Below are positions 3,472 to 62,044 of a DNA stretch of 64,000 bases, piece after piece. Source of the stretch: Octopus vulgaris (lineage: Eukaryota); the NCBI GenBank assembly GCA_951406725.2, contig OX597830.1, positions 2,790,001 through 2,854,000 on the forward strand. Direction: 5' to 3'. A program made the position numbers and the translations under genes. Each line of letters opens with the position of its first letter. Position 1 is the stretch's first letter. A model generated the notes under the pieces. That model saw only the letters and a list, made by a program, of their open reading frames with translations. It was not told the DNA's origin and did not search any database.

Positions 3472-3629
3472 CAGGTGTGGCTGTGTGGTAAGTAGCTTGC
3501 TTCCCAACCGCATAGTACCAGGTTCAGTCCCACTGCATGGCACCTTGGGCAAGTGTCTTCTACTATAGCCTCAGGCCAATCAAAGCCTTGTGAGTAGATT
3601 TGGTAGATGGAAACTGAAAGAAGCCCATC

Positions 3630-3662
<33 letters not shown>

Positions 3663-3985
3663 CATGCATATATCATCATCATCATCATCATCATCATCGT
3701 TTAACATGGAGAACGGACGTTAAACGATGATGATGATGATGATGATGATGATATATGCATGTATGTATTTGTGTGTCTATGTCTGTCCACCCACCATTAC
3801 TTGACAACCAATGCTGGTGCGTTTACGTCCCTGTAACTTAGCAGTTCAGCAAAAAGAACCAAAATAATAAGCACTAGGCTTACAAAGAATAAATTCTGGG
3901 GTTACTTTGTTCGACTAAAAGGAAGTGCTCCAGTATGGCAACAGGCAAAATCACTGAAACATGTAAAAAAATAAAAGAAAAGAAA
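3472..3985 (+). mobile_element. tRNA/CORE-type SINE (family A) with internal microsatellite
   Basis: tggctgtgtggtaag A-box, ggttcagtccc B-box, ccttgggcaagtg CORE-like motif; matches the copy at 43980-44437. Confidence 0.85.
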
Positions 3986-4854
3986 AATCATCACCATCAC
4001 CATCATCATCATCATCATCATCATTAACATCATCCTGAGGTTTTATATCTGTTCTTCTATGTTGGCATGGATGAGTAGTCTTAACATTTTTGAAATTGTT
4101 TGTCATCTTCTTTGGGATCCTAAAATCATCCCCCACCACTTCTCATCCCATCATCTTTGATCTCTTCCTTCTATGAACTTCTTCCCTCAGCCTTATTTGA
4201 CCCTTTTCCATGCATTTGTTACTCCTCATACACATCAAATACCTGTACCAACACAGCCTTTCTTCTTATTAACTATGAGAGATATCTCTGATGGCTGCTA
4301 TTCGGCTGCTCTTTCTAGCAGATCGTCTAACCATACAGAGGTATTCTCTCCAATAAATCATTGAGATCTATATCTGTTCACCAATCAAAATAATCTAAGC
4401 AGTTCTCAGTTGCAGCACTCAAGCACCTTTGCAGCAGTAGCCCCTGACAGTCTGAACTCTATTAAAATAATAAATTTTTCTTAATTGTCTTGTGTTTTAT
4501 TTTTTTTATTTTTTTGGTACAGCCTCCTAAAAAAATCTAGGTTTTGAATCTGTCCTTGATATTAAAAATGTTGATAACCACTCTAACATTTGCTACTTGG
4601 CTGCTCTTTCTAGCAGATTGACTGACCACATAGAGACACTCCTTCCAATACATCATTCAAACATATACCCATTCCCGAATTAAAGCGGTCAAAGTGATGT
4701 CCAGTTTTTATTTGTTAGACATTATTTGGTCCCCTCTGAGTTAGAAACTCTATTTTAGGGAACTACATTGAGATTTAGATGTCCTTACTATTATTTAACA
4801 ACCAAAAGATAAAATTAACTTCAGCCAGATTTGAACTCACGAGGAAGTTATTTG

Positions 4855-12702: not shown

Positions 12703-13941
12703 CAGGCTCTTCAAAAGTCCTGTTACACTCGGTTTTGATTTTTCAAGAGGTTAATGTGTGAGATAGAAAAAGTACTGACAAACACACTTCAAGTTCTACT
12801 TTTCCAGCACATGTCATTACAAAATCTTTACCATTGTGAGCAGGTGTATCAAGATGGAATTTTATAAAAAAAAAAACCCAGATCTTTGCACTCCTGTGCA
12901 TGGGCCACAACAAGCCTGACATCAGCAAGCAGCTCAACATCTGTCAGGTGACTCTCCATAGAGTCACGGAGAGGCTCAAGGACAAGAAACACCTCAAAGA
13001 TCGACCTCAATCAGTCAGACATCAAGTTGTCAACCATTTGGCTGTTGGAAAGGCTTTCAAAAGTGATCTGAAGCTCAAAATGACTGTGCTCGCAAAGAAC
13101 AACATCTTGGTGGCCACAGTGTACAGGGCTGTCAAGGAGGAGACAGGCAAGATCTTGAGATGTATGGAAAGGCCGCTGCTTACTGACCATATGTGAAAAC
13201 ACTGTCAAGAGTGCTGTCATTGCCTTCTCAATGACTTGAAGGGTCATGGCAATCGAATTCTCATTTTTTCTGATGAAAAATCTTTCAAGATCAATCCAAT
13301 CATCTGCATGGTCAACTTTGGACTGGATGTTTCTGAGGTCCACTACATGTCCACGATGAAGTATCCAACCCCCATGATGATGTTCAGTATCATGGCTTCA
13401 TATGGTGAGAAGATGTCGCAAGTGTGCTTCACAGCTAATTACAGGCTCACCGTAGCTGACTACAAGAACATCTTGGCCACAAAATCCTGCCCTGTGAGAG
13501 AAAGATCATGAAGAAGGTGGACTATGTCTTTCAGCAGGACAATGCCCTGGCCCACATGACCAAGACTGTACAAGAGTGGTTAGGATCGAAAATGAACTTC
13601 TGGTTGAAGGACTTTTAACCAATGCAGTCATCTGACCTCAACCCCTGGACTAGTGTGTGGGTGCATTTTGAGGACAAGGTCCACAAGGTCTGTCACATCA
13701 AAGTTGACAAGCTGAAGTCCTCCATCAATGGTTTGTGGGCCAGCATGAGGAAGGACTTCATCCACAACGTGTGTGTAGCTTTCAGATCTCGCCCAGAACA
13801 TGTGCTCACCAGTGAGGGTGGCTACATTACTTAATAATAACATTTAGAAACACATTTATATGTTAAACAATAAAAATGTGTTTAACTGCATCCTTTGTTC
13901 AGTGTTGTAACCAATGTAACTGGACTTTTGCAAAACCCGGG
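12703..13941 (+). mobile_element. Decayed Tc1/mariner-superfamily transposon (maT/DD37D-like)
   Basis: Imperfect ~30-bp TIRs (caggctcttcaaaagtcctgttacac / tgtaactggacttttgcaaaacccggg) in TA context; internal transposase remnant. Confidence 0.9.
12854..13834 (+). pseudogene. DDD transposase pseudogene
   Basis: ILIFSDEKSF, VFQQDNALAH and SSDLNP(L)D motifs, N-terminal HTH-like region; stops and frameshifts. Confidence 0.88.
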
Positions 13942-13999: not shown

Positions 14000-14838
14000 C
14001 TCCTATCCTTTTACTTGTTTCAGTCACTTGACTGTGGCCATGCTGGAGCACTACCTTGAAGGATTTTAGTGGAACAAATCCACCCCAGTACTTATTTTTA
14101 AAACTTAGTAATTATTCTGTCAGTCTCTTTAGCCAAACTGCTAAGTTATGGGAATGTAAAGATACCATCACCGGTTGTTAAGCAGTAATGGGTGGGGACA
14201 AACACAGAAACAAAGACACAAACATAAATATAAAGACACACAGATAGAAAACACATGCACACACAGATATATATATATATGAGTAATTTTAGAGACAGAA
14301 CCACCTTCAACTCAATCAAGACTAAATGATTATACACCGACCACTCCCAAAGATGTTAAAAATGAAATCTTATGCCAACTATTTCTATTCTGAATCCTGT
14401 ATTTTCCGTTTAAAAGACTACACGTGTTTCATGAAAGTATCTAATCGGTATTGATTAGATACGAGGTGTCTAGGTTCAATACTTCCTTGGGTCGACATAC
14501 TCCCTCAAATATATGAATTAAACATTGAGAGAGGTTCATTTTACTACAACTAATTTGAATGTCTTTTTCCTGTGTACTCAGAAGTAATATTCCCTAATAA
14601 TTATAATTATGATATATATATATATATATACACAGATGGGCTGTGTTTGTATATATATATACACAGCCCATATATATATAGGCTTCTTTTAGTTTCCGTC
14701 TACCAAATCCACTCACAAGGTACTGGACAGTCTGAAGCTATAGTAGAAGACACTTGCCTGGGCTACTATGCAGTAGGACTGACCCTAGAAACATGTAGTT
14801 GGGAAGCAGGCTTCTTACCATACAGCCATGCCAGCACC
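14000..14838 (-). mobile_element. SINE family A, split by an insert at ~14281-14612
   Basis: 3' half at 14000-14280 and head at 14680-14838 match 43980-44437 in reverse. Confidence 0.85.
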
Positions 14839-14860
14839 AATATACATACATATATATATG

Positions 14861-20106: not shown

Positions 20107-20154
<48 letters not shown>

Positions 20155-20167
20155 GATATGTATATAA

Positions 20168-20204
<37 letters not shown>

Positions 20205-20212
<8 letters not shown>

Positions 20213-21373
20213 CAACAATTGAGGGTAAAATTAATTAATTATTAATCAATTTCACCAAGTATTCAGTATGTAAAGGGACCATTTTAGGCGAATTCAAAAT
20301 ATTACATTATATATAAGGGCTTAGTAAAATAAATTACTTTGCCACATACTGAACTCATTAGAAATAGCAGCTAAAGAAATTTCTTTAGCTATTTCTAATA
20401 CTTAAAGAAGATCTCTCTCATATAGTGTTTGCTCAAACCAACTCACAAAGGTATGGGGGAAAAAACATTAAAAAATCAAGTGCAAAGGTTATTTGAGAAC
20501 GTACGTTTCTAGATTAGTCAAATCGACATTTCTTTTGTCAGCTCAGAACTCCTTGATTCGGATTTGGGAACACTGAAAGTGGGAGCATACCCTTTTGGCT
20601 TCTTATCACCTCTAGAATCCCGCTCGAACTAAAAGTGCTATCAAATTCAAAATATGCAAGCGAAGAATTTCTGCTCTCCCCTTTCCACCAGCGTGGGTTA
20701 AAATTGACAAACACTATGTTTTATCGGTGAAAACCGAAGCATTAAACAGAGAGAAATGAATTATAATTTCAACAATTGAGGGTAAAATTAATTAATTATT
20801 AATCAATTTCACCAAGTATTCAATATGTAAAGGGACCATTTTAGGCGAATTCAAAATATTACATTATATATAAGGGCTTAGTAAAATAAATTACTTTGCT
20901 ACATACTGAACTCATTAGAAATAGCAGCTAAAGAAATTTCTTTAGCTATTTCTAATACTTCACCGATAAAACATAGTGTTTGTCAATTTTAACCCACGCT
21001 GGTGGAAAGGGGAGAGCAGAAATTCTTCGCTTGCATATTTTGAATTTGATAGCACTTTTAGTTTGAGCGGGATTCTAGAGGTGATAAGAAGCCAAAAGGG
21101 TATGCTCCCACTTTCAGTGTTCCCAAATCCGAATCAAGGAGTTCTGAGCTGACGAAAGAAATGTCGATTTGACTAATCTAGAAACGTACGTTCTCAAATA
21201 ACCTTTGCACTTGAGTTTTTAATGTTTTTCCCCCATACCTTTGTGAGTTGGTTTGAGCAAACACTATCTGAGAGAGATCTTCTTTAAGTATTAGAAATAG
21301 CTAAAGAAATTTCTTTAGCTGCTATTTCTAATGAGTTCAGTATGTGGCAAAGTAATTTATTTTACTAAGCCCT

Positions 21374-21382
<9 letters not shown>
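20205..21382. mobile_element. Non-coding Penelope-like element: partial tandem plus inverted copy
   Basis: Direct repeat 20205-20403/20762-20960; inverted arms ~20306-20731/20959-21382; hammerheads on both strands; embedded in (TA)n. Confidence 0.85.
21145..21196 (+). ncRNA. Type-I hammerhead motif (mirror copy 20494-20545, -)
   Basis: tgag-CTGACGA-[imperfect stem II aga..gtc/gac..tct]-GAAA-cgtac-GTT-ctca; palindromic ACGTACGT stem III. Confidence 0.75.
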
Positions 21383-21407
<25 letters not shown>

Positions 21408-21423
21408 GAAGATATGTATATAA

Positions 21424-21474
<51 letters not shown>

Positions 21475-21487
21475 GATATGTATATAA

Positions 21488-21522
<35 letters not shown>

Positions 21523-21707
21523 GATATGTATATAAAGATATATATATATATATATATATGAAGATATGTATATAAAGATATATATATGTATATATATATA
21601 TATATATATATACATATATATAAAAAAATATAAATATAAAAGATCTTGCACAACAATTATATAAACGTATATGTATATATATATATATATGTACTGACCC
21701 GGAGATG

Positions 21708-22423: not shown

Positions 22424-22510
<87 letters not shown>

Positions 22511-22521
<11 letters not shown>

Positions 22522-23128
22522 AAAAAAGAAGTTTGAAAACGCCACTATATTAGATAAATTTTAATTTTCTTATTAATTTTACATGTTTCGGTTCTTGAAA
22601 AAACGAACCTTATCAAAAATATTATAAAAAGTGAAAATTGAAAAGTTCATAATCGTTTCTTACTGTTCTCAATAGAATCCATGTGGTGGTGTTTTGTTGG
22701 TAGTTGGTATAAAAGCGGTTCCTTTTAATACCAGCAAGAAACAATAATGGACTTCTTCAATACAATCAACAGGAATATAGCGATTATACCAACTACCGAC
22801 AAAACACCACCACATGGATTCTATTGAGAACAGTAAGAAACGATTATGAACTTTTCAATTTTCACTGTTTATAATATTTTTGATCAGGTTCGTTTTTTCA
22901 AGAACATGGATTCTATTGAGACCAGTTAGAAACGATTATGAACGTCTCCATTACACTTTTCTTCTCCATTACACTTTTTATAATATTTTTGATAAGGTTC
23001 GTTTTTTCAAGAACCGAAACATGTAAAATTCATAAGAAAATTAAAATTTATCTAATATAGTGGCGGTTTCAAACTTCTTTTTTACAAATATATACCCACT
23101 CGTATACTATCTACTCTTATTATAAATA
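22511..23128. mobile_element. Fold-back Penelope-like element
   Basis: Arms 22511-22712 and 22784-23094 (the right arm has an internal ~90-bp duplication); unpaired ~33-bp tail; (TA)n flanks. Confidence 0.85.
22985..23029 (+). ncRNA. Type-I hammerhead motif with U3:A8 core (mirror copy 22576-22620, -)
   Basis: attt-TTGATAA-ggttc-gttttttcaa-gaacc-GAAA-cat-GTA-aaat; ACATGT palindromic stem III. Confidence 0.75.
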
Positions 23129-23342
23129 TATATATATATATACATAGACATCATTAATATATGTACATATAAATATATGCATATTAAATCACATATGTAT
23201 TTTAGATACGACTGCTATCAACATACTCTGGTTAAGCTTAAGAGCAAAACGTCAATTATCTAATGAGAAACCAAGTTATATCACCTGAAGAGATTCCCCT
23301 GCACTGGTGTGGTTTATTAGAATTCATTGTGTTGTTTCTCAC

Positions 23343-30652: not shown

Positions 30653-30787
30653 TAAAATTACTAATCTCTCTAAAGGAGATTATGGCAGCATTACTGGAAA
30701 TTAATAGTTATTGCCATACTTATATGGCAGTCTTATAAATATAAGACTGCCATATAAGTATGGCGATAACTATTAATATATATATAT

Positions 30788-30998
30788 ACTCTTTACTCTC
30801 TTTTACTTGTTTCAGTCATTTGACTGTGGCCATGCTGGAGCACCACCTTTAGTCAAGCAAATCAACCCCTTATTCTTTGTAAGCCTAGTACTTATTCTAT
30901 CGGTCTCTTTTGCTGAACTGCTAAGTTATGGGGACATAAACACACCAGCATTGGTTGTCAAGCAATGTTGAGGCACAAACACAGACACACAAACATTT

Positions 30999-31033
<35 letters not shown>

Positions 31034-31110
31034 CACATATATATGACAGGCTTCTTTTAGTTTCTGTCTACCAAATCCACTCATGAGGCTTTGGTCGGCC
31101 CGAGGCTATA
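30788..31110 (-). mobile_element. SINE family A, 5'-truncated
   Basis: Matches ~44075-44437 in reverse. Confidence 0.9.
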
Positions 31111-31111
31111 T

Positions 31112-31415
31112 GCTGATAGCATGTAAAAAGCACTATCCAAATGTGGTAGATGTTACACCCCACCAACTGGCTCCTGTGCCAGCAGCACATAAAAAGCACC
31201 ATCCAAACATGGTTGATGCCAGTGCCACCTTGACTTGATCCCTTGCCGGTGGCACGTAAAAAGCACCCACTACACTCTTGGAGTGGTTGGTTTTAGGAAG
31301 GGCATCCAGCTGTAGAAACATTGCCAGATCAGATTGGTGCAGCCTCCTGACTTGCCAGTCCCCTAACCGATGCCAGCATGGAAAACGGACGTTAAACGAT
31401 GATGATGATGATGAT
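31112..31415 (+). mobile_element. (GAT)n-tailed SINE (family D), 3' part
   Basis: Internal repeats aaaagcacc...gtgcc, then aggaagggcatccagctgtagaaac and catggaaaacggacgttaaac(gat)n. Confidence 0.85.
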
Positions 31416-31742
31416 ATATACACATACATATTAATGTGTGTTTTTATGCTCAATTACAATAAAAGCAATTTTGCATTAATCTGATGGCTTACTCCATACT
31501 TTTGTAGAGTACAAATTTATTATTTTTATACAAGAATGTTCTTGATAGTGACTTCAAATTTTTGGCCAGCTAAGTCATCATCAGATGATTGCTTAGCTAG
31601 CCAAAACTTCGAAATCACTGTCATCAGCATTCTTGTTTAGAAACAGTACAGAAACGAGACCCCAAAACATTGAAAGGCGGTGCTCTAGCATGGCCCCAGC
31701 CTCTGGCTAAAATGAGTTGGAGAGTAAAAGAATAAAAGAATA

Positions 31743-32004
31743 TATCATCATCATCATCGTTTAACGTCTGCTTTCCAGGCTGGCATGGGTTGGACGTTTT
31801 GACTGAGGACTGGTGAGCTACAAGGCTGCACCAGGCTCCAATCTGATCTGGCAGAGTTTCTACAGCTGCAGCTGGATGTCCTTCCTAATGCCAACAACTC
31901 CGAGAGTGTAGTGGGTGCTTTTTACATGCCACCATCATGAGTGCCAGTCAGGCGGTACTGGCAACAGCCATGCTCAAATGGTGCTTTTTATGTGTCACCT
32001 GCAC
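31743..32004 (-). mobile_element. SINE family D
   Basis: Inverted homologue of 31112-31415. Confidence 0.85.
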
Positions 32005-35864: not shown

Positions 35865-37127
35865 TTTAGGTTGTCCAGAAAGTTCTGAGTGTTTTTTAAT
35901 ATGGTAAAAGGGACATAAATAACTGACCTTTCAATAAATTTTATTGAATGAAATAATTTCCATTATTATTAATGACTTTTGTCCATCTATCAGGCAATTT
36001 CAATATTCCATCCACATAAAGTTTGACTGGTTTTGAAGAAAAGATGTTATATAGAAGCATTTTGACTCCATCTAAATCTTTAAATGTTTTTCCTTGCAAA
36101 GAGTTCTGTAGAGACAAGAACAAGTGGCAGTCGGATGATGCAATATGAGGAGAATATGGTGGATGGGGTAAGAGATCCCAGCCAAGGTCATGTGACTTTG
36201 TTCGGGTAACCAAAGACACATGTGGTTGGGCATTGTCTTGTCAGAACACTACTCCTTTCCTGTTGGCAATCTCCAGCCTCAGTTCTTTAATTTTTTGGTA
36301 CAAATTAGCCAGCTGACGAATTAATTGTCTGGATTAGTAGGAGAAGCTCATAATAAATAATGCCTTTATGATCCCACCAAACACAAAATATAGCTTTTTG
36401 GTAAGGATATTCTTCTTTGGTTGCTGCTTTGGAGGATCTTTATGCAAACTCCAGGATCTTTTTCTCCCTAAGTTTTTGTAAACAATCCATTTTACATCTC
36501 CAATCACAAGTTGTTTAAAAAAGGCAAGCTTTCATTCCATTTCAAAAGCATGTCACAAAAGGAATACTGGTTCAAGCAAATCTTTTCTGAGAGTCTTTGA
36601 GAGACCCACACATTATAGTGATAAATGTATCCTTGCTTCATTAGGTGTTCATGGGCCATACTTTTAGGAACTTCCAACTCCTCTGCAAGTTCCCTTGTGT
36701 TTTCTTTGATTTTTGACTTCAAAACATCTTCCTCCAATTTTGAAGGTCTTCCACTGTAACAGTCATCCTTCAAGCTAAACTCTCCAGCTTTAAATTTTGC
36801 AAACCATCTTTGAATAATTGATTCACCTACAGCATCATCATCACCAGAAACTTCACAAATGTTTTTGCAAGTCTTTGCAGCATTTTCTCCTTTTTGAAAA
36901 AAGAAAAACATCACAACACGAATATGAAATTTTTGCTTAGACATTTCAAATGTCAATAAAGGGTACCCAAAATGAAAGCTAAATCTATTTTCCGTCAGGA
37001 ACGAAGAGGAGATGCACCACCACTCCAAGCAATGCCAAAGGTTTTATTGTGTTACATTTCCAGTGTGTTCAATCAAGCATTAAAGATTTAGGTTTAAAAT
37101 GCTCAGAACTTTCTGAACCACCTAATA
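35865..37127 (-). mobile_element. Decayed mariner (DD34D) transposon
   Basis: TIRs ttaggttgtccagaaagttctgag / ctcagaactttctgaaccacctaa; ~1.26 kb. Confidence 0.93.
35941..36944 (-). pseudogene. Mariner transposase pseudogene
   Basis: HTH (IQRWFAKFKAG...SGRP), WVSQRL (WVPHEL-like), QDNAQPH, HPPYSPHIASSDCHLF, RW.KVI..NGNYF; stops and frameshifts. Confidence 0.93.
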
Positions 37128-37625: not shown

Positions 37626-39984
37626 TTTATTTCCGAATTTGTGTTAATGTGTATAGAATAATATATCAGTTAAAATGTTCAAACCTATTCTGAACAGAAA
37701 TAACAACAATAATATAACAACCAGTTAATGATGTGAATTAAATATCTTTAACCTATCAATATAAACAACTATGAAAACCAACTGAGTTTTCTCCCTCATA
37801 ACACCATTACATGTAAACCACAAACTAATTGGTTAAAATAAAGATGGGATGTATGCCAGTAATATCGGTACACCCAGCAAACCATGACTTCTAAGCTGCA
37901 TGTGGATTGGTCAAAACCGTATTCCAAAAGATTCAGCTTGTTGGAGCCTTCTGAGAGGTACAAAAAGGAAGAAAACATGGTCTGGTTTTGACGATTTTTT
38001 ATAATTGTGCTTTAAAAAATTTTTTTACAATGTTGAAGTATGTTAAACATTAAAAAATATTTTGTAATGTTCCTAAAGTTTAACCAATGCTTTCATATAT
38101 TCGTAGTAATCATCAGATTCCAAAATGCATTTAACTGACAGTCTGGGTCTTGACAACTGTAGTAAAATGACTGACTCCTTCCTTTTGGTACTTCTTGTCC
38201 CTTTCATTAGGAGTGAGGGAGTTATAATGTTGTAACATGATATTTCATCTTAAAACATTATAGCTCAACCAATTTGGAAGATTTTAGTGTTGGTCACATA
38301 TGGCTGGTTGCTGACATATTTTCCCACTTTGTATGGATATTTTATCCTGTCTCTGCAGTTCTATCAGTGTTTGTGTTTTTGAAAATAAATTCTTTTCTTA
38401 TTTGTATCTCACAAAACTCATTTCAGTGCTTTTACATTTAGCGCAATAAAATCTCACAATGTATTTTGTTCAATGATCTAATGATTCTTTTCTAATTAAG
38501 CCATTAATTCACAAATATTTTGCTTATACCCCGATTCCCACCACTTAATCTGTTCCTCAGTTTATTTCCACCATCTGTACCCTTAAATATATCAAAAAGA
38601 ACCAAATCTGTTCCAAGAATTTATCTTAGGTCTTCACTATCTTTGTACAGTGATTCCTACAGAAGTGGCAATGTGCAGACCATGGTTTCATCTTTTCTTT
38701 CCATCATTATTGATGTCTCTGATCAATGATAATGTTTTCCGTCCTTTCACTTCTGACGATGTCAAAAGAAAACATGTTAAACTATTGACACAAAGCAAAC
38801 TGTTCTTCCTCTAAACAAGAGCAATTCTCTCAAGAATATGCAGCCATTCCACCACCAATTCCCAGCCTGACTGTCTCTATTCTTCTTAACCTCACTAAAA
38901 ATGGTATTCCAAAGTAACCTACCCTTTCACCCTTAATGTATTCTCCCAGCCAAAAAGCCTCCAAATTTTCTCAACTTCCTCAATTTTGTCACTAATTTCT
39001 GATATTATTTCACCCATCAAATCTAAGAAATCTCCTAATCCACCCCCCCCACCTTCTCCTCCTCCTCCTCCTTTTCCTCCCTGCTGCTTCTGGTCATTTA
39101 CACTCACTTCTCAAATAAGTTGATAATTCTTAATTAAATCTCTGGATTTCAAGAAACACTTAGCAAAGAATCCATGGAAATGTTTAATCTAAAATTTGGC
39201 ACAGCATCTATTTTCTGCAGCATCTTAGAGAATGTTAGAGCATTCTTTGCTTCACTTGCACTCATCCAACCACAAACTAAAAACAACAAGAACACAAACC
39301 AAGCCATTGGAAGCCAGAAATTGCCCCCACCCCTCCTCCCTTCCTCCTCTCCCCTTTTCTCCTCCCCCCCCTCCTATTCATCAGCCAACATTAGAAACAG
39401 CAGTGTAGTTATTAAGACTGTTCGCATACTTTATCAATTTTTCATAAAAACTAAAACACAATTTACTATAATAAGCAATTGCTCTTTGCAAGACAGATAG
39501 GAATCGTACCATTGGGAGGAATTTGGCTCCGTTTGAGATATTTCTTGTTCAGAAATTAAGTGGAGATACATTATTCAGGTTCCATTTTATTGCGTCCTCA
39601 AGCAAGAGGAAGGAATAAAGATATGGATATATTTATTTCATAGTCTTGTGTGATAAATAGACAACTGCTTAATATTTTGTTACTACACACACACACACAC
39701 ACACACATGCACACACTCATGCACACACACATATATACATATATAAATATAATAAACACACAGATACATATGTATCCGTGTTTGTAGTATATGTGCATGC
39801 ATATCATCCCCATCATCATCCTCATCATTATAATATCCACTTTTCCATGCCTGCATGGGTTACACTGAGTCTGTTATGGCTGAATGCCTTTCCTGTCACT
39901 AACCCTCACCTATATTCCAAGCAAAGTAATATTTTCACACAGACAGACATTTTCACAGAATGTTGGAAATCTATGACTCTGTAT

Positions 39985-40392
39985 CTCTCTCTTTCTCTTT
40001 TACTTGTTTCAGTCATTTGACTGCGGCCATGCTGGAGCACCGCCTTTAATCGAGCATCTCGACCCTGGGACTTATTCTTTTGTAAGCTCAGTACTTATTC
40101 TATCGGTCTCTTTTGCCGAACCGCTAAGTAACGGGGACATAAACACACCAGCATCGGTTGTCAAGCAATGCTGGGGGTACAAACACAGACACACAAACAC
40201 ACACATACATATATATATATACATATATACGACAGGCTTCTTTCAGTTTCCGTCTACCAAATCCACTCACAAGGCATCGGTCGGCCCGGGGCTATAGCAG
40301 AAGACACTTGCCCAAGATGCCACACAGTGGGACTGAACCCGGGACCATTTGGTTGGTTAGCAAGCTACTTACCACACAGCCACTCTTGCGCC
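39985..40392 (-). mobile_element. SINE family A, full length, young
   Basis: CpG-retaining; highly similar to 43980-44437 in reverse. Confidence 0.93.
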
Positions 40393-40597
40393 TATGATGG
40401 GGATACTAATTTACAATCATCACATGATGTCAAGACAAGGACAAACAAATACACACACACAGAGGCACACACACACACACACACACATACACACACACAC
40501 AGAGGCGCGCACACACACACACACATTAAGCATGGGATATTGATAATGCTTACATCATTGAGCTGTTTCTGATGTTAAATTCAAATACACCTATAGC

Positions 40598-43138: not shown

Positions 43139-43979
43139 TATAAACCATAAAATGCTAGCATGTATGAGAGACGAATACATATATATTTAGCCACTTGATA
43201 TCTGCAGTTTTATGCCCCATTTTCCAGCCTTCATTATGTAATAGTAATTTCAGAGTTTAATGAATTATTTTACTATTCTGCACCAATATATATGCGACAC
43301 ATTGCACGATACAGATGCATATTTAGAGATGAGGGCAGATATGGAAGACGAACCTTTCAAGTGACCAAAACATCAAGGTTACATCAATGCTTCAACTCTA
43401 ATGGATATCAAATGGTTAAATAAATATATTCACCTTTCCTACCTCCTGATTCATCATGGAGTGTATACTTTGCATGAAACAATTTCATTAATCAGATCTC
43501 CTGCATTTCAACTGTGTGGGACTCTACATTATACCCCTTTTGTTTTGTATTACTATGTCATATGATAGATGGGTCCACTAGAGGGTCTTTGTGTGATAGC
43601 CAAAAGATTCTATGAAACTATATATTGCACTACAAATATACACACTCACACACACACACTCACACACACACACACACATACACACACACACATACACACA
43701 CACACATAACAAATGGATGTCTTATAAAACTGCTCCACACATACAACAATGGCCATACCAACAATCCAACACCTTTCCATGGATATCACGATATCACTAT
43801 GGTTTTGACACCTGGGCAGTATCATTCAATCCAGGGCTATCAACAGCACTAAAATAAGCATTGATTGGGAACAAACATACCTTGGATATCACCACATTCA
43901 TTCAATCTTAATTCTACGAAGGATTAAGCACTAACATTTTAAATTAAACTAATAATTCTATAAGTAAATCAAATTAATA

Positions 43980-44157
43980 GGTGTAGGAGTGGCTGTGTGG
44001 TAAGTAGCTTGCTTACCAACCACATGGTTTCCAGGTTCAGTCTCACTGCATGACACCTTGGGCAAGTGTCTTCTACTATAGCCACGGGCTGACCAAAGCC
44101 TTGTGAGTGGATTTGGCAGACGGAAACTGAAAGAAGCCCGTCGTATATATATATATG

Positions 44158-44212
<55 letters not shown>

Positions 44213-44437
44213 ATATGTTTTTGTTTCTGTGTTTGTCCCCACCAATATCGCTTGACAACCGATGCTGGTGTGTTTACGTCCCTGTAACTTAGCAGTTCGG
44301 CAAAAGAGACCGATTGAATAAGTACTAGACTTACAAAGAATAAGTCCTGGGGTCGATTTACTTGACTAAAGGCAGTGCTCCAGCATGGCCACAGTCAAAT
44401 GACTGAAACAAGTAAAAGAGTAAAAGAGTAAAGAGTA
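43980..44437 (+). mobile_element. SINE family A, full length
   Basis: tRNA head, CORE-like motif, internal (TA)(TG), (taaaagag)n tail; 19-bp flank duplication taataattctataagtaaa at 43950-43968 and 44436-44454. Confidence 0.95.
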
Positions 44438-45159
44438 ATAATTCTATAAGTAAACCTATAACTAACTCCCAACTTATCTAGTGAAATAGCAACCTAACCC
44501 TTGAAGTCCATACAAATAATCTTCTGTCCAGTCTTCCATAGTTATTAATATAAAAATGAAAGCTTTTATTTTCTATTCTTTCGAAAACAAAACAAACTCA
44601 ATTGAACTTAACTTAACTAATATTATAACTAACTCTATGTAAATTACAATATTTCATAGCCCAAAAGTTAATAATTAAAACACTCCAAACATATTAAATA
44701 TTCTTTATTCTTACAAGCTTTTATGTTAAACTTATACCAGTAAATTAATAGATAATACTAAGATATCCTTATTAAATCAGAAACTGATAAAAGAATACCT
44801 GTAATTAACAATTATTTTTTAAAAGCCCTGTTATGATTAAAGCTAGCTGGGTTAGAAAACAGAGAGATCTAATGGATACAAACTAATTTATTAATTAATA
44901 AATTAATTTGTATCCATTAGAACTCTGTTTTCTGACTCGACAATAATGTTTGATATTTTATATAATATATTCATTGAATGGTTATCTCTTCAAAATTTGA
45001 TATATTAAACTAGTGTATCTTGAATAAATACTTCTATAAGGGATTTAAATATTCTTGTTCTGACTATAAATGATATATATAATAGCACAAAGAGACAGTG
45101 CCAGTTATTCACACACTTTACCAATTAAGAATCTTCCTAGCACACCACCATTCAGTCCA

Positions 45160-45790: not shown

Positions 45791-46178
45791 ACATTATTTA
45801 CGTTATTTACATTTGACGGATATTTGTCCTCATCTTGTTTGTTGTTAACACAACATTTTGGTTGATATACTCTCCAGCCTTCATCAAACCTGGGTTCTCA
45901 TTCCTAAGGTATTTCTCGATGTTGTTGTTATTATATTACCATTATTATTATTCAGGTCACTGCCTGGGATCAGACTCGGAATCTTGGGGTTAGTAGCCCA
46001 TGCTCTTAACCTTAGGAACATGAACCCAGGTTCAAAATTTCCCCAAGGCACCTGATGAGGGCTGGAGGGTATATCAGCTGAAACGTTGTGTTAACAACAA
46101 ACAAGATGAGGACAAAAATCCGTCAAATGTAAATAATGTAAATAACATACACAATTGCTGATCTCTTAATTATAGAAC
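45791..46178. mobile_element. Fold-back element with tRNA-like head and hammerhead, flanked by a 15-bp TSD
   Basis: Arms 45790-45909/46010-46149; tRNA-like segment on the minus strand ~45953-46011; TSD tgcaatattttagct (45776-45790) / tgcaatgttttagtt (46179-46193). Confidence 0.85.
46047..46092 (+). ncRNA. Minimal type-I hammerhead motif
   Basis: ggcac-CTGATGA-g-ggctg-gagggtatat-cagct-GAAA-c-GTT-gtgtt; decayed mirror copy at ~45846-45887 (-). Confidence 0.8.
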
Positions 46179-58439: not shown

Positions 58440-58603
58440 TTATGGTTTCTTAAACATTCTCTAGAACAACACTATATACAAAACCAAATATATGGCACCC
58501 TAGGCATAACACCAACATGAACTTCCAACTTGTTGTCTCTTGAGGTCTCTGGGTGAGACTTGGAGCCAACTTGTACAAATTCAAAGCAAAAGTCAAACAT
58601 AAA

Positions 58604-58640
<37 letters not shown>
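58440..58640 (+). mobile_element. Probable R4/Dong-related 3' end between (AAT)n tracts
   Basis: ttgaggtctctgggtgagactt resembles ttgaggtccttgttgggactt in the UTR of 58641-59190; (AAT)n tail. Confidence 0.5.
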
Positions 58641-58641
<1 letters not shown>

Positions 58642-59135
58642 CAACATACACCAGAAAAGGTAATGGAGGATAAGGCAAAAATCCTCTGGGACCTTGACTT
58701 CCAGATCGACAAGGTATTAGAGCACCAAAGGCCAGATATAATAACCTTTAGGAGGGACAAACAAGAGTGCCTAATAATCGATGAGGAAGTGCCAGGAGAT
58801 CAATATATTATCATGAAAGAAAGTGAAAAGACTGATAAATATGGAGAGGTGAGAATTGAGATTGCAAAGATGTGGCAGCTACGAGAGTCAAACATAAAGG
58901 TTGACTCTATTGTCATCGGAGCATTGGTTCCAGTACCACCAAAACTGATGAGAAACATCTGGGCACATTAGAAATACCCTACAATTGGCAGAAATTGGCT
59001 CTACTCGGAACTGCAAGCATACTGTGTGAAGGATTTTGTGTTTGAGGTCCTTGTTGGGACTTCACCCCCGATACACACAATATTTTCCATCAACATCATG
59101 ATATCAGATACTGTGCAGTGTCTTCAATAATGATG

Positions 59136-61629: not shown

Positions 61630-62044
61630 CTTTTCTTTTATCTTTTATCTTTTGCTTGTTTCAGTCATTAGACTGTGGCCATGCTGGGGCACCACTGGGG
61701 AATTTTAGTGGAACAAATCAACCCCAAAATTTATTTTTATTTTAAAATCCAGTACTTATTTTATTGTTCTCTTTTTCTGAACCACTAAGTTACAGGGGCA
61801 TAAATACAGAAATACCAGTTGTGAAGCAGTGGTGGGAGTCAAACACAGACACAAAGACACACATACATAGATATATACAATGGGCTTCTTTCAGTTTCCA
61901 TCTACCAAATGTACTCACAAATTTTTGGTCAGCATGAGGTTATTGTAGAAGACACTTGCCCAAGCCAAGGTGCTACAGAGTGGGACTGAACTCAGAACCA
62001 TGTGGCTGGGGAACCAATTTCTTACCACACAACCATGCCTGCAC
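61630..62044 (-). mobile_element. SINE family A, full length, diverged
   Basis: Matches 43980-44437 in reverse. Confidence 0.88.

What the first reader, a model, noticed from the sequence alone, without database searches (positions are those of the whole stretch)
20205..21382. A-B-x-A-B'-A' element: partial tandem plus ~425-bp fold-back, with hammerheads on both strands
Seen: a 199-bp direct repeat (20205-20403/20762-20960) and near-identical ~425-bp inverted arms. On the minus strand this reads as about 1.4 tandem units of a ~557-bp monomer, followed by a switch to an inverted copy. The switch (20959-20960) lies right after an internal palindrome, agctaaagaaa|tttctttagct, extended by tagaaatagc/gctatttcta. 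The + strand HHR core is intact (CTGACGA); the - strand copy has G8>A. Inference: reverse transcription of a circular or multimeric ~0.56-kb RNA (retrozyme-like), with a hairpin-promoted template switch. Arm identity suggests a recent event.
Basis: partly seen in the sequence, partly recalled or inferred. Interest (0 to 1): 0.72.

Follow-up and report, generated by a model that had tools for sequence, protein, structure and literature searches.

The report
Small Penelope-type insertion with hammerhead ribozyme
A 1.2-kb non-coding jumping-gene insertion in an animal genome shows the tandem-plus-inverted layout and minimal self-cleaving RNA motif already described for Penelope-like retroelements, so it looks like an ordinary member of a known kind.

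Summary
The geometry is real. A 557-bp unit (20205-20761) is followed by a 199-bp second round and a ~427-bp inverted copy, all inside a (TA)n tract. The 'hammerheads on both strands' are one motif in one RNA polarity, carried into the inverted copy. It fits the published minimal type I hammerhead of Penelope-like elements (PLEs); 0 of 20,000 shuffles gave an equal motif. Rfam misses it, and cleavage is untested. Partial tandem, inverted 5'-truncated copy, one-sided tail and (TA)n target are the described PLE insertion signature (Craig 2021), and opposite-strand hammerhead pairs were noted in 2014. Best reading: a recent insertion of a non-autonomous, retrozyme-like PLE. Most likely both target strands primed reverse transcription at TA microhomologies, and the two cDNA ends then annealed. 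A hairpin snap-back does not fit, because the inverted arm starts 229 nt from the hairpin. A circular template is possible but not shown. A second, unrelated hammerhead-bearing inverted element sits at 45794-46145. No other copies or RNA data were available.

The parts
20110..20208 (.). Left flank: (TA)n tract holding one copy of a 19-bp spacer (20152-20170); inferred insertion target
20205..20761 (-). Full 557-bp unit U, 33.6% GC. Inferred RNA sense is the minus strand. Longest stop-free frame within the element is 60 aa, with no Pfam match at a curated cut-off
20205..20307 (-). One-sided 3' 'tail' (~100 nt): present at the left end, absent from the outer end of the inverted copy
20762..20960 (-). 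Second, 5'-truncated round (U1-199): the pseudo-LTR-like partial tandem; it holds no hammerhead
20959..21385 (+). Inverted 5'-truncated copy (U527 back to ~U102). Right boundary is ambiguous between 21373 and 21385 because of shared TA
21145..21196 (+). Minimal type I hammerhead-like motif with intact core. CUGACGA at 21149; palindromic helix III; predicted cut after GUU at 21192; helix I extendable to 21136-21205
20494..20545 (-). Same motif with G8>A (CpG-type change at 20536); predicted inactive
20914..20956 (.). 19-bp-stem hairpin (22-bp perfect palindrome plus extension), ending ~4 nt before the inversion junction; other copies at 20357-20399 and 21290-21332
   Evidence: (z -3.2, 0 of 200 shuffles, measured on the 21280-21345 copy)
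20959..20960 (.). Inversion junction: 2-nt TT microhomology; alternatively a 7-of-8-nt match 7 nt further along, followed by a 7-nt skip
21374..21638 (.). Right flank: (TA)n with four more copies of the 19-bp spacer, in the same orientation as on the left

Best explanation
This is one recent insertion of a ~557-nt non-coding, hammerhead-bearing retroelement (a non-autonomous PLE or non-LTR retrozyme-like unit), placed in trans by a Penelope-like RT/GIY-YIG protein. SHOWN: the layout; the (TA)n site; both outer ends falling in TA runs of the unit; one hammerhead motif per unit in one polarity; no ORF. INFERRED: (1) the RNA is the minus strand of U and was longer than one unit, or was circular, or was re-used by template jumping. 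(2) The endonuclease cut both strands of the (TA)n tract. (3) The left target end primed at the TATA at U1 and gave 756 nt of cDNA (1.36 rounds). (4) The right target end primed at the TATATATA near U104 and gave ~427 nt. (5) The two cDNA 3' ends annealed through a short microhomology and were filled in, leaving the element's 3' ends pointing outwards on both sides. (6) The copies then diverged, and G8>A hit one hammerhead. The locus has only one hammerhead per strand, so it cannot cut out a unit-length RNA and is probably a dead end. My probabilities: PLE-mobilised non-autonomous insertion ~0.85; two-ended priming as the route ~0.55-0.6.
For: The layout matches the published PLE description: partial tandem forming a pLTR, an adjacent inverted 5'-truncated copy, a one-sided tail and (TA)n targets (PMC8557442 passages; PMC8969392 passages). 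The motif fits the PLE min-HHR consensus CUGANGAH-helix II-GAAA-palindrome-UH (PMC4209133 text and Fig. S3). By my count from that PDF text, 24 of 56 listed motifs have U17, at least 3 of 56 close helix II with A-U, and 1 of 56 has an extra A before GAAA, all as here. In 20,000 shuffles of the arm, 6 gave any descriptor hit and 0 gave one with a palindrome of 6 nt or more. Only 30 of 557 unit positions lie in or at TA runs of 4 nt or more, yet both ends do (p~0.003, post hoc). A PLE protein cleaves and extends both target strands in vitro and is predicted to be a dimer (PMC11167929). The three copies are distinct: a private change in copy 2 at U139, 4 of 6 substitutions are transitions, and 2 are at CpG. 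A second hammerhead-bearing inverted element with unrelated sequence lies at 45794-46145.
Against: No autonomous partner or second copy could be examined, so kinship to a PLE rests on layout and motif, not homology. Rfam gives no hammerhead hit. The motif lacks the conserved G10.1-C11.1 pair, and its active fold (-5.4 kcal/mol) is not the minimum-energy fold (-9.8). The descriptor was written after seeing the motif and did not require helix II pairing. The tail (~100 nt) is longer than the 30-40 bp reported, and the hammerhead is not inside the 199-bp duplication. In vitro, the anole PLE starts RT at RNA sites not homologous to the cut DNA, which argues against TA microhomology being needed. 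The two cDNAs overlap by ~100 nt of unit sequence, which needs two RNAs or strand displacement.
Confidence: 0.75

Rival explanations
1. Single-primed cDNA with intramolecular loop-back. After 1.36 rounds the cDNA 3' end was released, perhaps by the hairpin forming in the new strand. It annealed to its own first round ~229 nt upstream, was extended to ~U104 and was then joined to the right target end at TA. This is the repaired form of the first reader's model.
For: The junction lies ~4 nt past a 19-bp hairpin. There is a 7-of-8-nt match 7 nt from the junction. It needs only one RNA and explains the 100-nt overlap.
Against: Three other sites in the unit match 7 of 8 equally well. The hairpin was passed twice without a switch. 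It does not explain why PLE inverted copies in general expose the element's 3' end. The final sequence cannot be told from two-ended priming.
Confidence: 0.22
2. No circle and no true 557-nt element: three separately 5'-truncated pieces of the 3' end of a long autonomous PLE were inserted together.
For: 5' truncation and partial tandems are the norm for PLEs. No circle or multimer evidence was available.
Against: Two independent passes end within 30 nt of each other (U557 and U527), as expected if the template ends or repeats there. No ORF remnant was found in the ~210 nt upstream of the hammerhead. The predicted fold pairs the unit's first ~60 nt with positions ~325-350.
Confidence: 0.12
3. 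Assembly or library artefact (fold-back chimera or mis-joined repeat).
For: Inverted repeats beside long (TA)n tracts are hard to assemble, as PMC8557442 notes. Reads were not available.
Against: The copies differ by substitutions with a CpG/transition bias. The inverted arm stops at the element edge and returns to same-orientation flank instead of running into mirrored flank. The layout matches a known biological pattern.
Confidence: 0.05
4. A post-insertion DNA rearrangement (replication fork template switching) turned a simple insertion into duplication plus inversion.
For: Hairpins, palindromes and TA tracts are fork obstacles (general knowledge), and the junction has microhomology.
Against: The rearranged DNA is confined to the element and includes no unique flank. 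Direct and inverted copies have the same divergence (2/199 and 4/425).
Confidence: 0.04

Closest known systems
Penelope-like elements (EN+ clades Penelope/Poseidon, Neptune, Hydra), insertion architecture as in Craig et al. 2021 (PMC8557442)
   Same: Partial tandem (pLTR), adjacent inverted 5'-truncated copy, one-sided tail, (TA)n site with no discernible target duplication, minimal type I hammerhead.
   Different: No RT/GIY-YIG ORF; unit 557 bp instead of several kb; tail ~100 nt instead of 30-40; hammerhead ~290 nt from the 3' end and outside the duplicated pLTR.
Metazoan non-LTR retrozymes (Cervera and de la Pena 2020, PMC7229834; Li et al. bioRxiv 10.64898/2026.07.22.740005)
   Same: Short non-coding head-to-tail unit with a type I hammerhead; GC below 45%; length inside the 51-972 bp range reported; thought to be PLE-derived and PLE-mobilised.
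   Different: Only 1.36 direct units and one same-strand hammerhead, so it fails the two-unit 'active' criterion. The motif is of the minimal PLE type, not the canonical loop-loop type. It carries an inverted arm, which the passages I saw of these two papers do not describe. circRNA is untested.
Dual opposite-strand min-HHRs of Schistosoma and Cotesia bracovirus PLEs (Cervera and de la Pena 2014, PMC4209133)
   Same: Two minimal hammerheads ~100-700 bp apart on opposite strands (here 608 bp core to core).
   Different: Here the complete tandem-plus-inversion anatomy is resolved and the unit is non-coding.
Hydra-1_Obim (Octopus bimaculoides Hydra-clade PLE; supplement of PMC8557442)
   Same: (TA)n preference; hammerhead with an A-U closing pair in helix II and U at the cleavage site.
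   Different: Its listed hammerhead sequence differs from this one, and it is a 2.5-kb coding element. It is a candidate kind of helper only; the host species of this window was not established.
Non-autonomous Chlamys PLEs (MRC1, Chlamys-N4) of Chlamydomonas
   Same: Non-coding PLE partners with pLTRs, head-to-tail copies and microsatellite targets.
   Different: Green-algal elements, mostly without a hammerhead; Chlamys targets are (C)n/(CA)n.
LINE-1 twin priming (recalled, not read here)
   Same: 5' inversion formed by priming from both target strands and joined by microhomology.
   Different: The L1 template is a linear single unit with poly(A) and a target duplication; here there is a partial tandem and ~100 nt of overlap between the two cDNAs.

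Membership tests
Autonomous Penelope-like element | ORF with telomerase-like RT and GIY-YIG endonuclease | tested here: not met
   Longest stop-free frame inside the element is 60 aa; 9 frames scanned, none reached a Pfam cut-off
PLE-type insertion (non-autonomous) | Partial tandem: full copy preceded by a 5'-truncated copy (pLTR) | tested here: met
   557 + 199 bp, 99% identical
PLE-type insertion (non-autonomous) | Inverted 5'-truncated copy adjacent to the upstream pLTR | tested here: met
   20959-21385
PLE-type insertion (non-autonomous) | 30-40 bp tail at one end only | tested here: inconclusive
   A one-sided extension is present but ~100 nt long
PLE-type insertion (non-autonomous) | Minimal type I hammerhead with palindromic helix III | tested here: met
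   Descriptor hit, 0 of 20,000 shuffles equal; matches the Fig. S3 consensus except G10.1-C11.1; no Rfam hit
PLE-type insertion (non-autonomous) | Microsatellite target, target duplication often not discernible | tested here: met
   (TA)n on both sides; a duplication cannot be read because the flank is a minisatellite
PLE-type insertion (non-autonomous) | 3'-end similarity to an autonomous PLE of the same genome | not testable with these tools
   No eukaryotic genome collection; a 10-nt motif of the hammerhead had 0 hits in the Craig 2021 supplement text, a weak test
Non-LTR retrozyme | Short non-coding, low-GC head-to-tail unit with a type I hammerhead | tested here: met
   557 bp, 33.6% GC, one motif per unit
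Non-LTR retrozyme | [quoted passage not shown] | tested here: not met
   1.36 direct units, one same-strand motif, and that one has G8>A
Non-LTR retrozyme | Self-cleavage and accumulation of circular RNA | not testable with these tools
   No RNA data or assay
Non-LTR retrozyme | Stable self-paired monomer circle | tested here: inconclusive
   Circular fold z -5.2 for the sense strand but -5.5 for the antisense strand; hammerhead domain z -1.8 against -2.7; 2 of 18 control stretches reached z below -4.5
Viroid-like RNA with ribozymes in both polarities | A ribozyme on each polarity of the monomer | tested here: not met
   Both motifs map to the same polarity of the unit; a scan allowing one core mismatch found none on the other

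The most novel reading that the evidence does not exclude
The locus records one event in which a PLE enzyme primed from both strands of a cut (TA)n tract, at TA microhomologies, on a hammerhead-circularised 557-nt RNA. It rolled past the ligation site and joined the two cDNA ends. That would give one mechanism for the tandem, inverted and tail features of PLE insertions, and a family in which to test it from breakpoint statistics.
Probability: 0.2. Interest if true: 0.55.

Novelty: new member of a known kind. Interest (0 to 1): 0.25.

Why it matters
As a single locus it matters little: it is a probably dead insertion of a known class. Its use is as a clean, young example. PMC8557442 names the formation of tandem/inverted PLE structures and their microsatellite bias as still unexplained, and the circle model for animal retrozymes is a proposal. 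A family of short non-coding copies like this one would allow a direct test, by mapping start points, junctions and permutations across the genome. The family itself may be unannotated; I could not check Repbase or Dfam.

Tried and rejected
Rfam: no hammerhead or other ribozyme, at gathering score or E<=10. The best hits were microsatellite noise in the flanks; the few inside the element were weak (E 0.39 or worse). Two-polarity (viroid-like) ribozymes: rejected. Hairpin snap-back: the predicted continuation is not seen. A CTAATGA-containing second motif near the hairpin was seen by eye but not recovered by the relaxed scan. Folding as evidence for RNA polarity or a circle: no strand asymmetry, and the hammerhead segments fold no better than shuffles. 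Coding remnant: none. Similarity between this unit and the 45794-46145 element: none above shuffles (48 and 141 of 200 reached the score). Host identification through a protein fragment at 58645-58968: no hits in two searches, so the cephalopod-like impression is unverified. Literature: a search for Penelope-like + inverted + twin priming listed 2 papers, neither about PLE mechanism by title and abstract start; hammerhead ribozyme + octopus listed 4, none describing such a family by title or abstract start. Lunse et al. 2017 was not held. Supplements of the 2026 bioRxiv preprint were closed and may list related families.

Full report
Observation. The repeats are as described. Calling 20205-20761 the unit U (557 bp, 33.6% GC), the + strand reads U1-557, then U1-199 (20762-20960), then the reverse complement of U527 down to about U102 (20959 to ~21385). 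The direct copies differ at 2 of 199 positions. The inverted arms differ by 4 substitutions in ~425 bp and one base in an A run. The last segment is only the inner half of A, so about 100 nt present at the left end are missing at the right. No other copy lies in the window. The window looks like animal DNA: mostly 27-43% GC, dense microsatellites, CpG observed/expected 0.38, and a mariner remnant. It resembles cephalopod sequence from recall only; two protein searches meant to test this found nothing.

Site. The element sits in a (TA)n tract interrupted by a 19-bp spacer, which occurs once on the left and four times on the right, all in one orientation and nowhere else in the window. A target duplication cannot be read. 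Both outer ends share TA with the target: TATA at U1 and TATATATA at U104-111. Only 30 of 557 positions of the unit lie in or at such runs, so two ends there by chance is about 0.003 (post hoc, and the right boundary is ambiguous by ~12 nt).

Hammerhead. Rfam finds none. A hand-written descriptor required CUGANGA, a 7-40 nt spacer, GAAA, a palindromic helix III, UH and a helix I of at least 4 bp. It finds + 21149 and, with G8 relaxed, - 20541. In 20,000 dinucleotide shuffles of the arm, 6 gave any hit and 0 had a palindrome of 6 nt or more; 30 shuffled windows gave 0.033 hits each against 2 observed. The descriptor was made after seeing the motif. The motif has a 4-bp helix I extendable to about 11 bp, an interrupted 3+3(4)-bp helix II, a self-complementary helix III (duplex -11.6 kcal/mol) and a GUU cut site. 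Its active fold is weaker than the free fold (-5.4 against -9.8 kcal/mol), and the segments fold no better than shuffles. It matches the minimal PLE hammerhead of Cervera and de la Pena 2014 (PMC4209133; main text parts 1-2 of 4 and supplement parts 1-2 of 3 read): extra base after A9, short helix I, palindromic helix III. It lacks the conserved G10.1-C11.1 pair. By my count of their Fig. S3 text, U17 occurs in 24 of 56 motifs, an A-U closing pair in at least 3 and an extra A before GAAA in 1. Both copies lie in the same polarity of the unit, so the RNA is inferred to be the minus strand of U. G8 changes abolish cleavage in the anole PLE ribozyme (PMC11167929, parts 1-2 of 4 read), so the 20541 copy is predicted dead. 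Activity of the other is untested.

What it is. Read in RNA sense, the insertion is an inverted truncated copy, a 199-bp truncated copy, a full unit, then (TA)n. Craig et al. 2021 (PMC8557442, passages) describe PLE insertions in these terms: partial tandems forming a pLTR, an inverted 5'-truncated copy adjacent to it, a 30-40 bp tail often at one end only, and (TA)n targets. Goubert et al. 2022 say the same (passages). The 2014 paper already reports pairs of minimal hammerheads ~100-700 bp apart on opposite strands; here they are 608 bp apart. There is no ORF, so the unit is non-autonomous. That places it beside non-LTR retrozymes (PMC7229834, passages; bioRxiv 10.64898/2026.07.22.740005, parts 1-3 of 5), which these papers link to PLEs. 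It fails the preprint's criterion for an active retrozyme (two consecutive units with complete hammerheads). An unrelated element at 45794-46145 repeats the pattern: a well-formed minimal hammerhead at + 46052 inside a 93-bp inverted repeat (91% identity), with a decayed copy on the other arm. Two cases in 64 kb suggest the layout is common in this genome.

Mechanism. Most likely a PLE protein cut both strands of the TA tract. The left end primed at U1 and copied 756 nt, the right end primed near U104 and copied about 427 nt, and the two cDNA ends annealed. The junction has 2 nt of shared TT. Alternatively it used a 7-of-8 match 7 nt further on, with a 7-nt skip; three other sites in the unit match as well. 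In vitro, the anole PLE protein cleaves and extends both target strands. The same study found RT starting at RNA sites without homology to the cut DNA, and uncleaved RNA as the main template. So reading through the hammerhead site is no evidence for a circle, and the TA ends could instead reflect endonuclease preference. A true hairpin snap-back is excluded: it predicts the complement of the bases next to the hairpin, while the arm begins 229 nt away. A looser form, release at the hairpin followed by loop-back onto the first round, gives the same final sequence and stays open (0.22). The template must supply more than one unit. Two passes end at U557 and U527, which suggests a real unit of this size, but circle, linear multimer and template jump cannot be separated here. 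Folding does not help: both strands score z about -5, and 2 of 18 control stretches do as well.

Age and artefact. Six substitutions in 624 aligned bp, four of them transitions and two at CpG, with a change private to copy 2, point to real post-insertion divergence of about 0.5% per copy. The inverted arm ends at the element edge and returns to same-orientation flank, unlike a fold-back chimera. Reads were not available.

Novelty. It is a new, possibly unannotated member of a known kind. My searches listed no paper on this family or on two-ended priming in PLEs. The library lacks most subscription papers, and Repbase and Dfam could not be checked. Interest 0.25. The boldest open reading, two-ended priming on a circular ribozyme RNA, has probability about 0.2 and would deserve about 0.55.

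Noticed in passing
window 45794-46145: Second, unrelated PLE-like relic: 93-bp inverted repeat (91%) with a well-formed minimal hammerhead at + 46052 (extra base after A9, 5-6-bp helix II, 2-nt palindrome, GUU site, 5-bp helix I) and a decayed copy on the other arm.
   Followed up: partly
window 20152-20170, 21408-21578: A 19-bp spacer in (TA)n occurs once left and four times right of the element and nowhere else in the window; it is either a pre-existing minisatellite or an amplified target duplication.
   Followed up: partly
window 22424-23184: Large imperfect palindromic element beside a (TA)n tract, with arms 22424-22684 / 22904-23184 and an inner palindrome 22591-22905; no similarity to the finding.
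   Followed up: no
window 31186-31994, 30700-30777, 3656-3768, 44851-44936: Further palindromic or fold-back repeats.
   Followed up: no
window 39972-40395, 43977-44440, 30787-31110, 61644-62035, 3473-3991, 14008-14850: Dispersed ~450-bp repeat family at 67-87% identity, SINE-like by impression.
   Followed up: no
window 36504-37043 (-): Mariner transposase remnant, Pfam HTH_48 at E 4.5e-16. A Tc1-like remnant at 12840-13511 was judged by eye and had no Pfam hit.
   Followed up: partly
window 58603-58971 (+): Frame next to an AAT-type repeat resembling the restriction-like endonuclease end of a non-LTR retrotransposon (recalled motif); no Pfam or protein hits.
   Followed up: partly
window 20718-20738 and 20224-20256: Within the unit, a small 5-bp hairpin contains the inner end of the inverted arm in its loop, and a 15-bp AT-rich hairpin lies in the tail (fold; coordinates approximate).
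   Followed up: no
window 20299-21387: Any transcript across the locus would form a ~425-bp double-stranded stem that sequesters the intact hammerhead and could be an editing or small-RNA substrate (inference).
   Followed up: no
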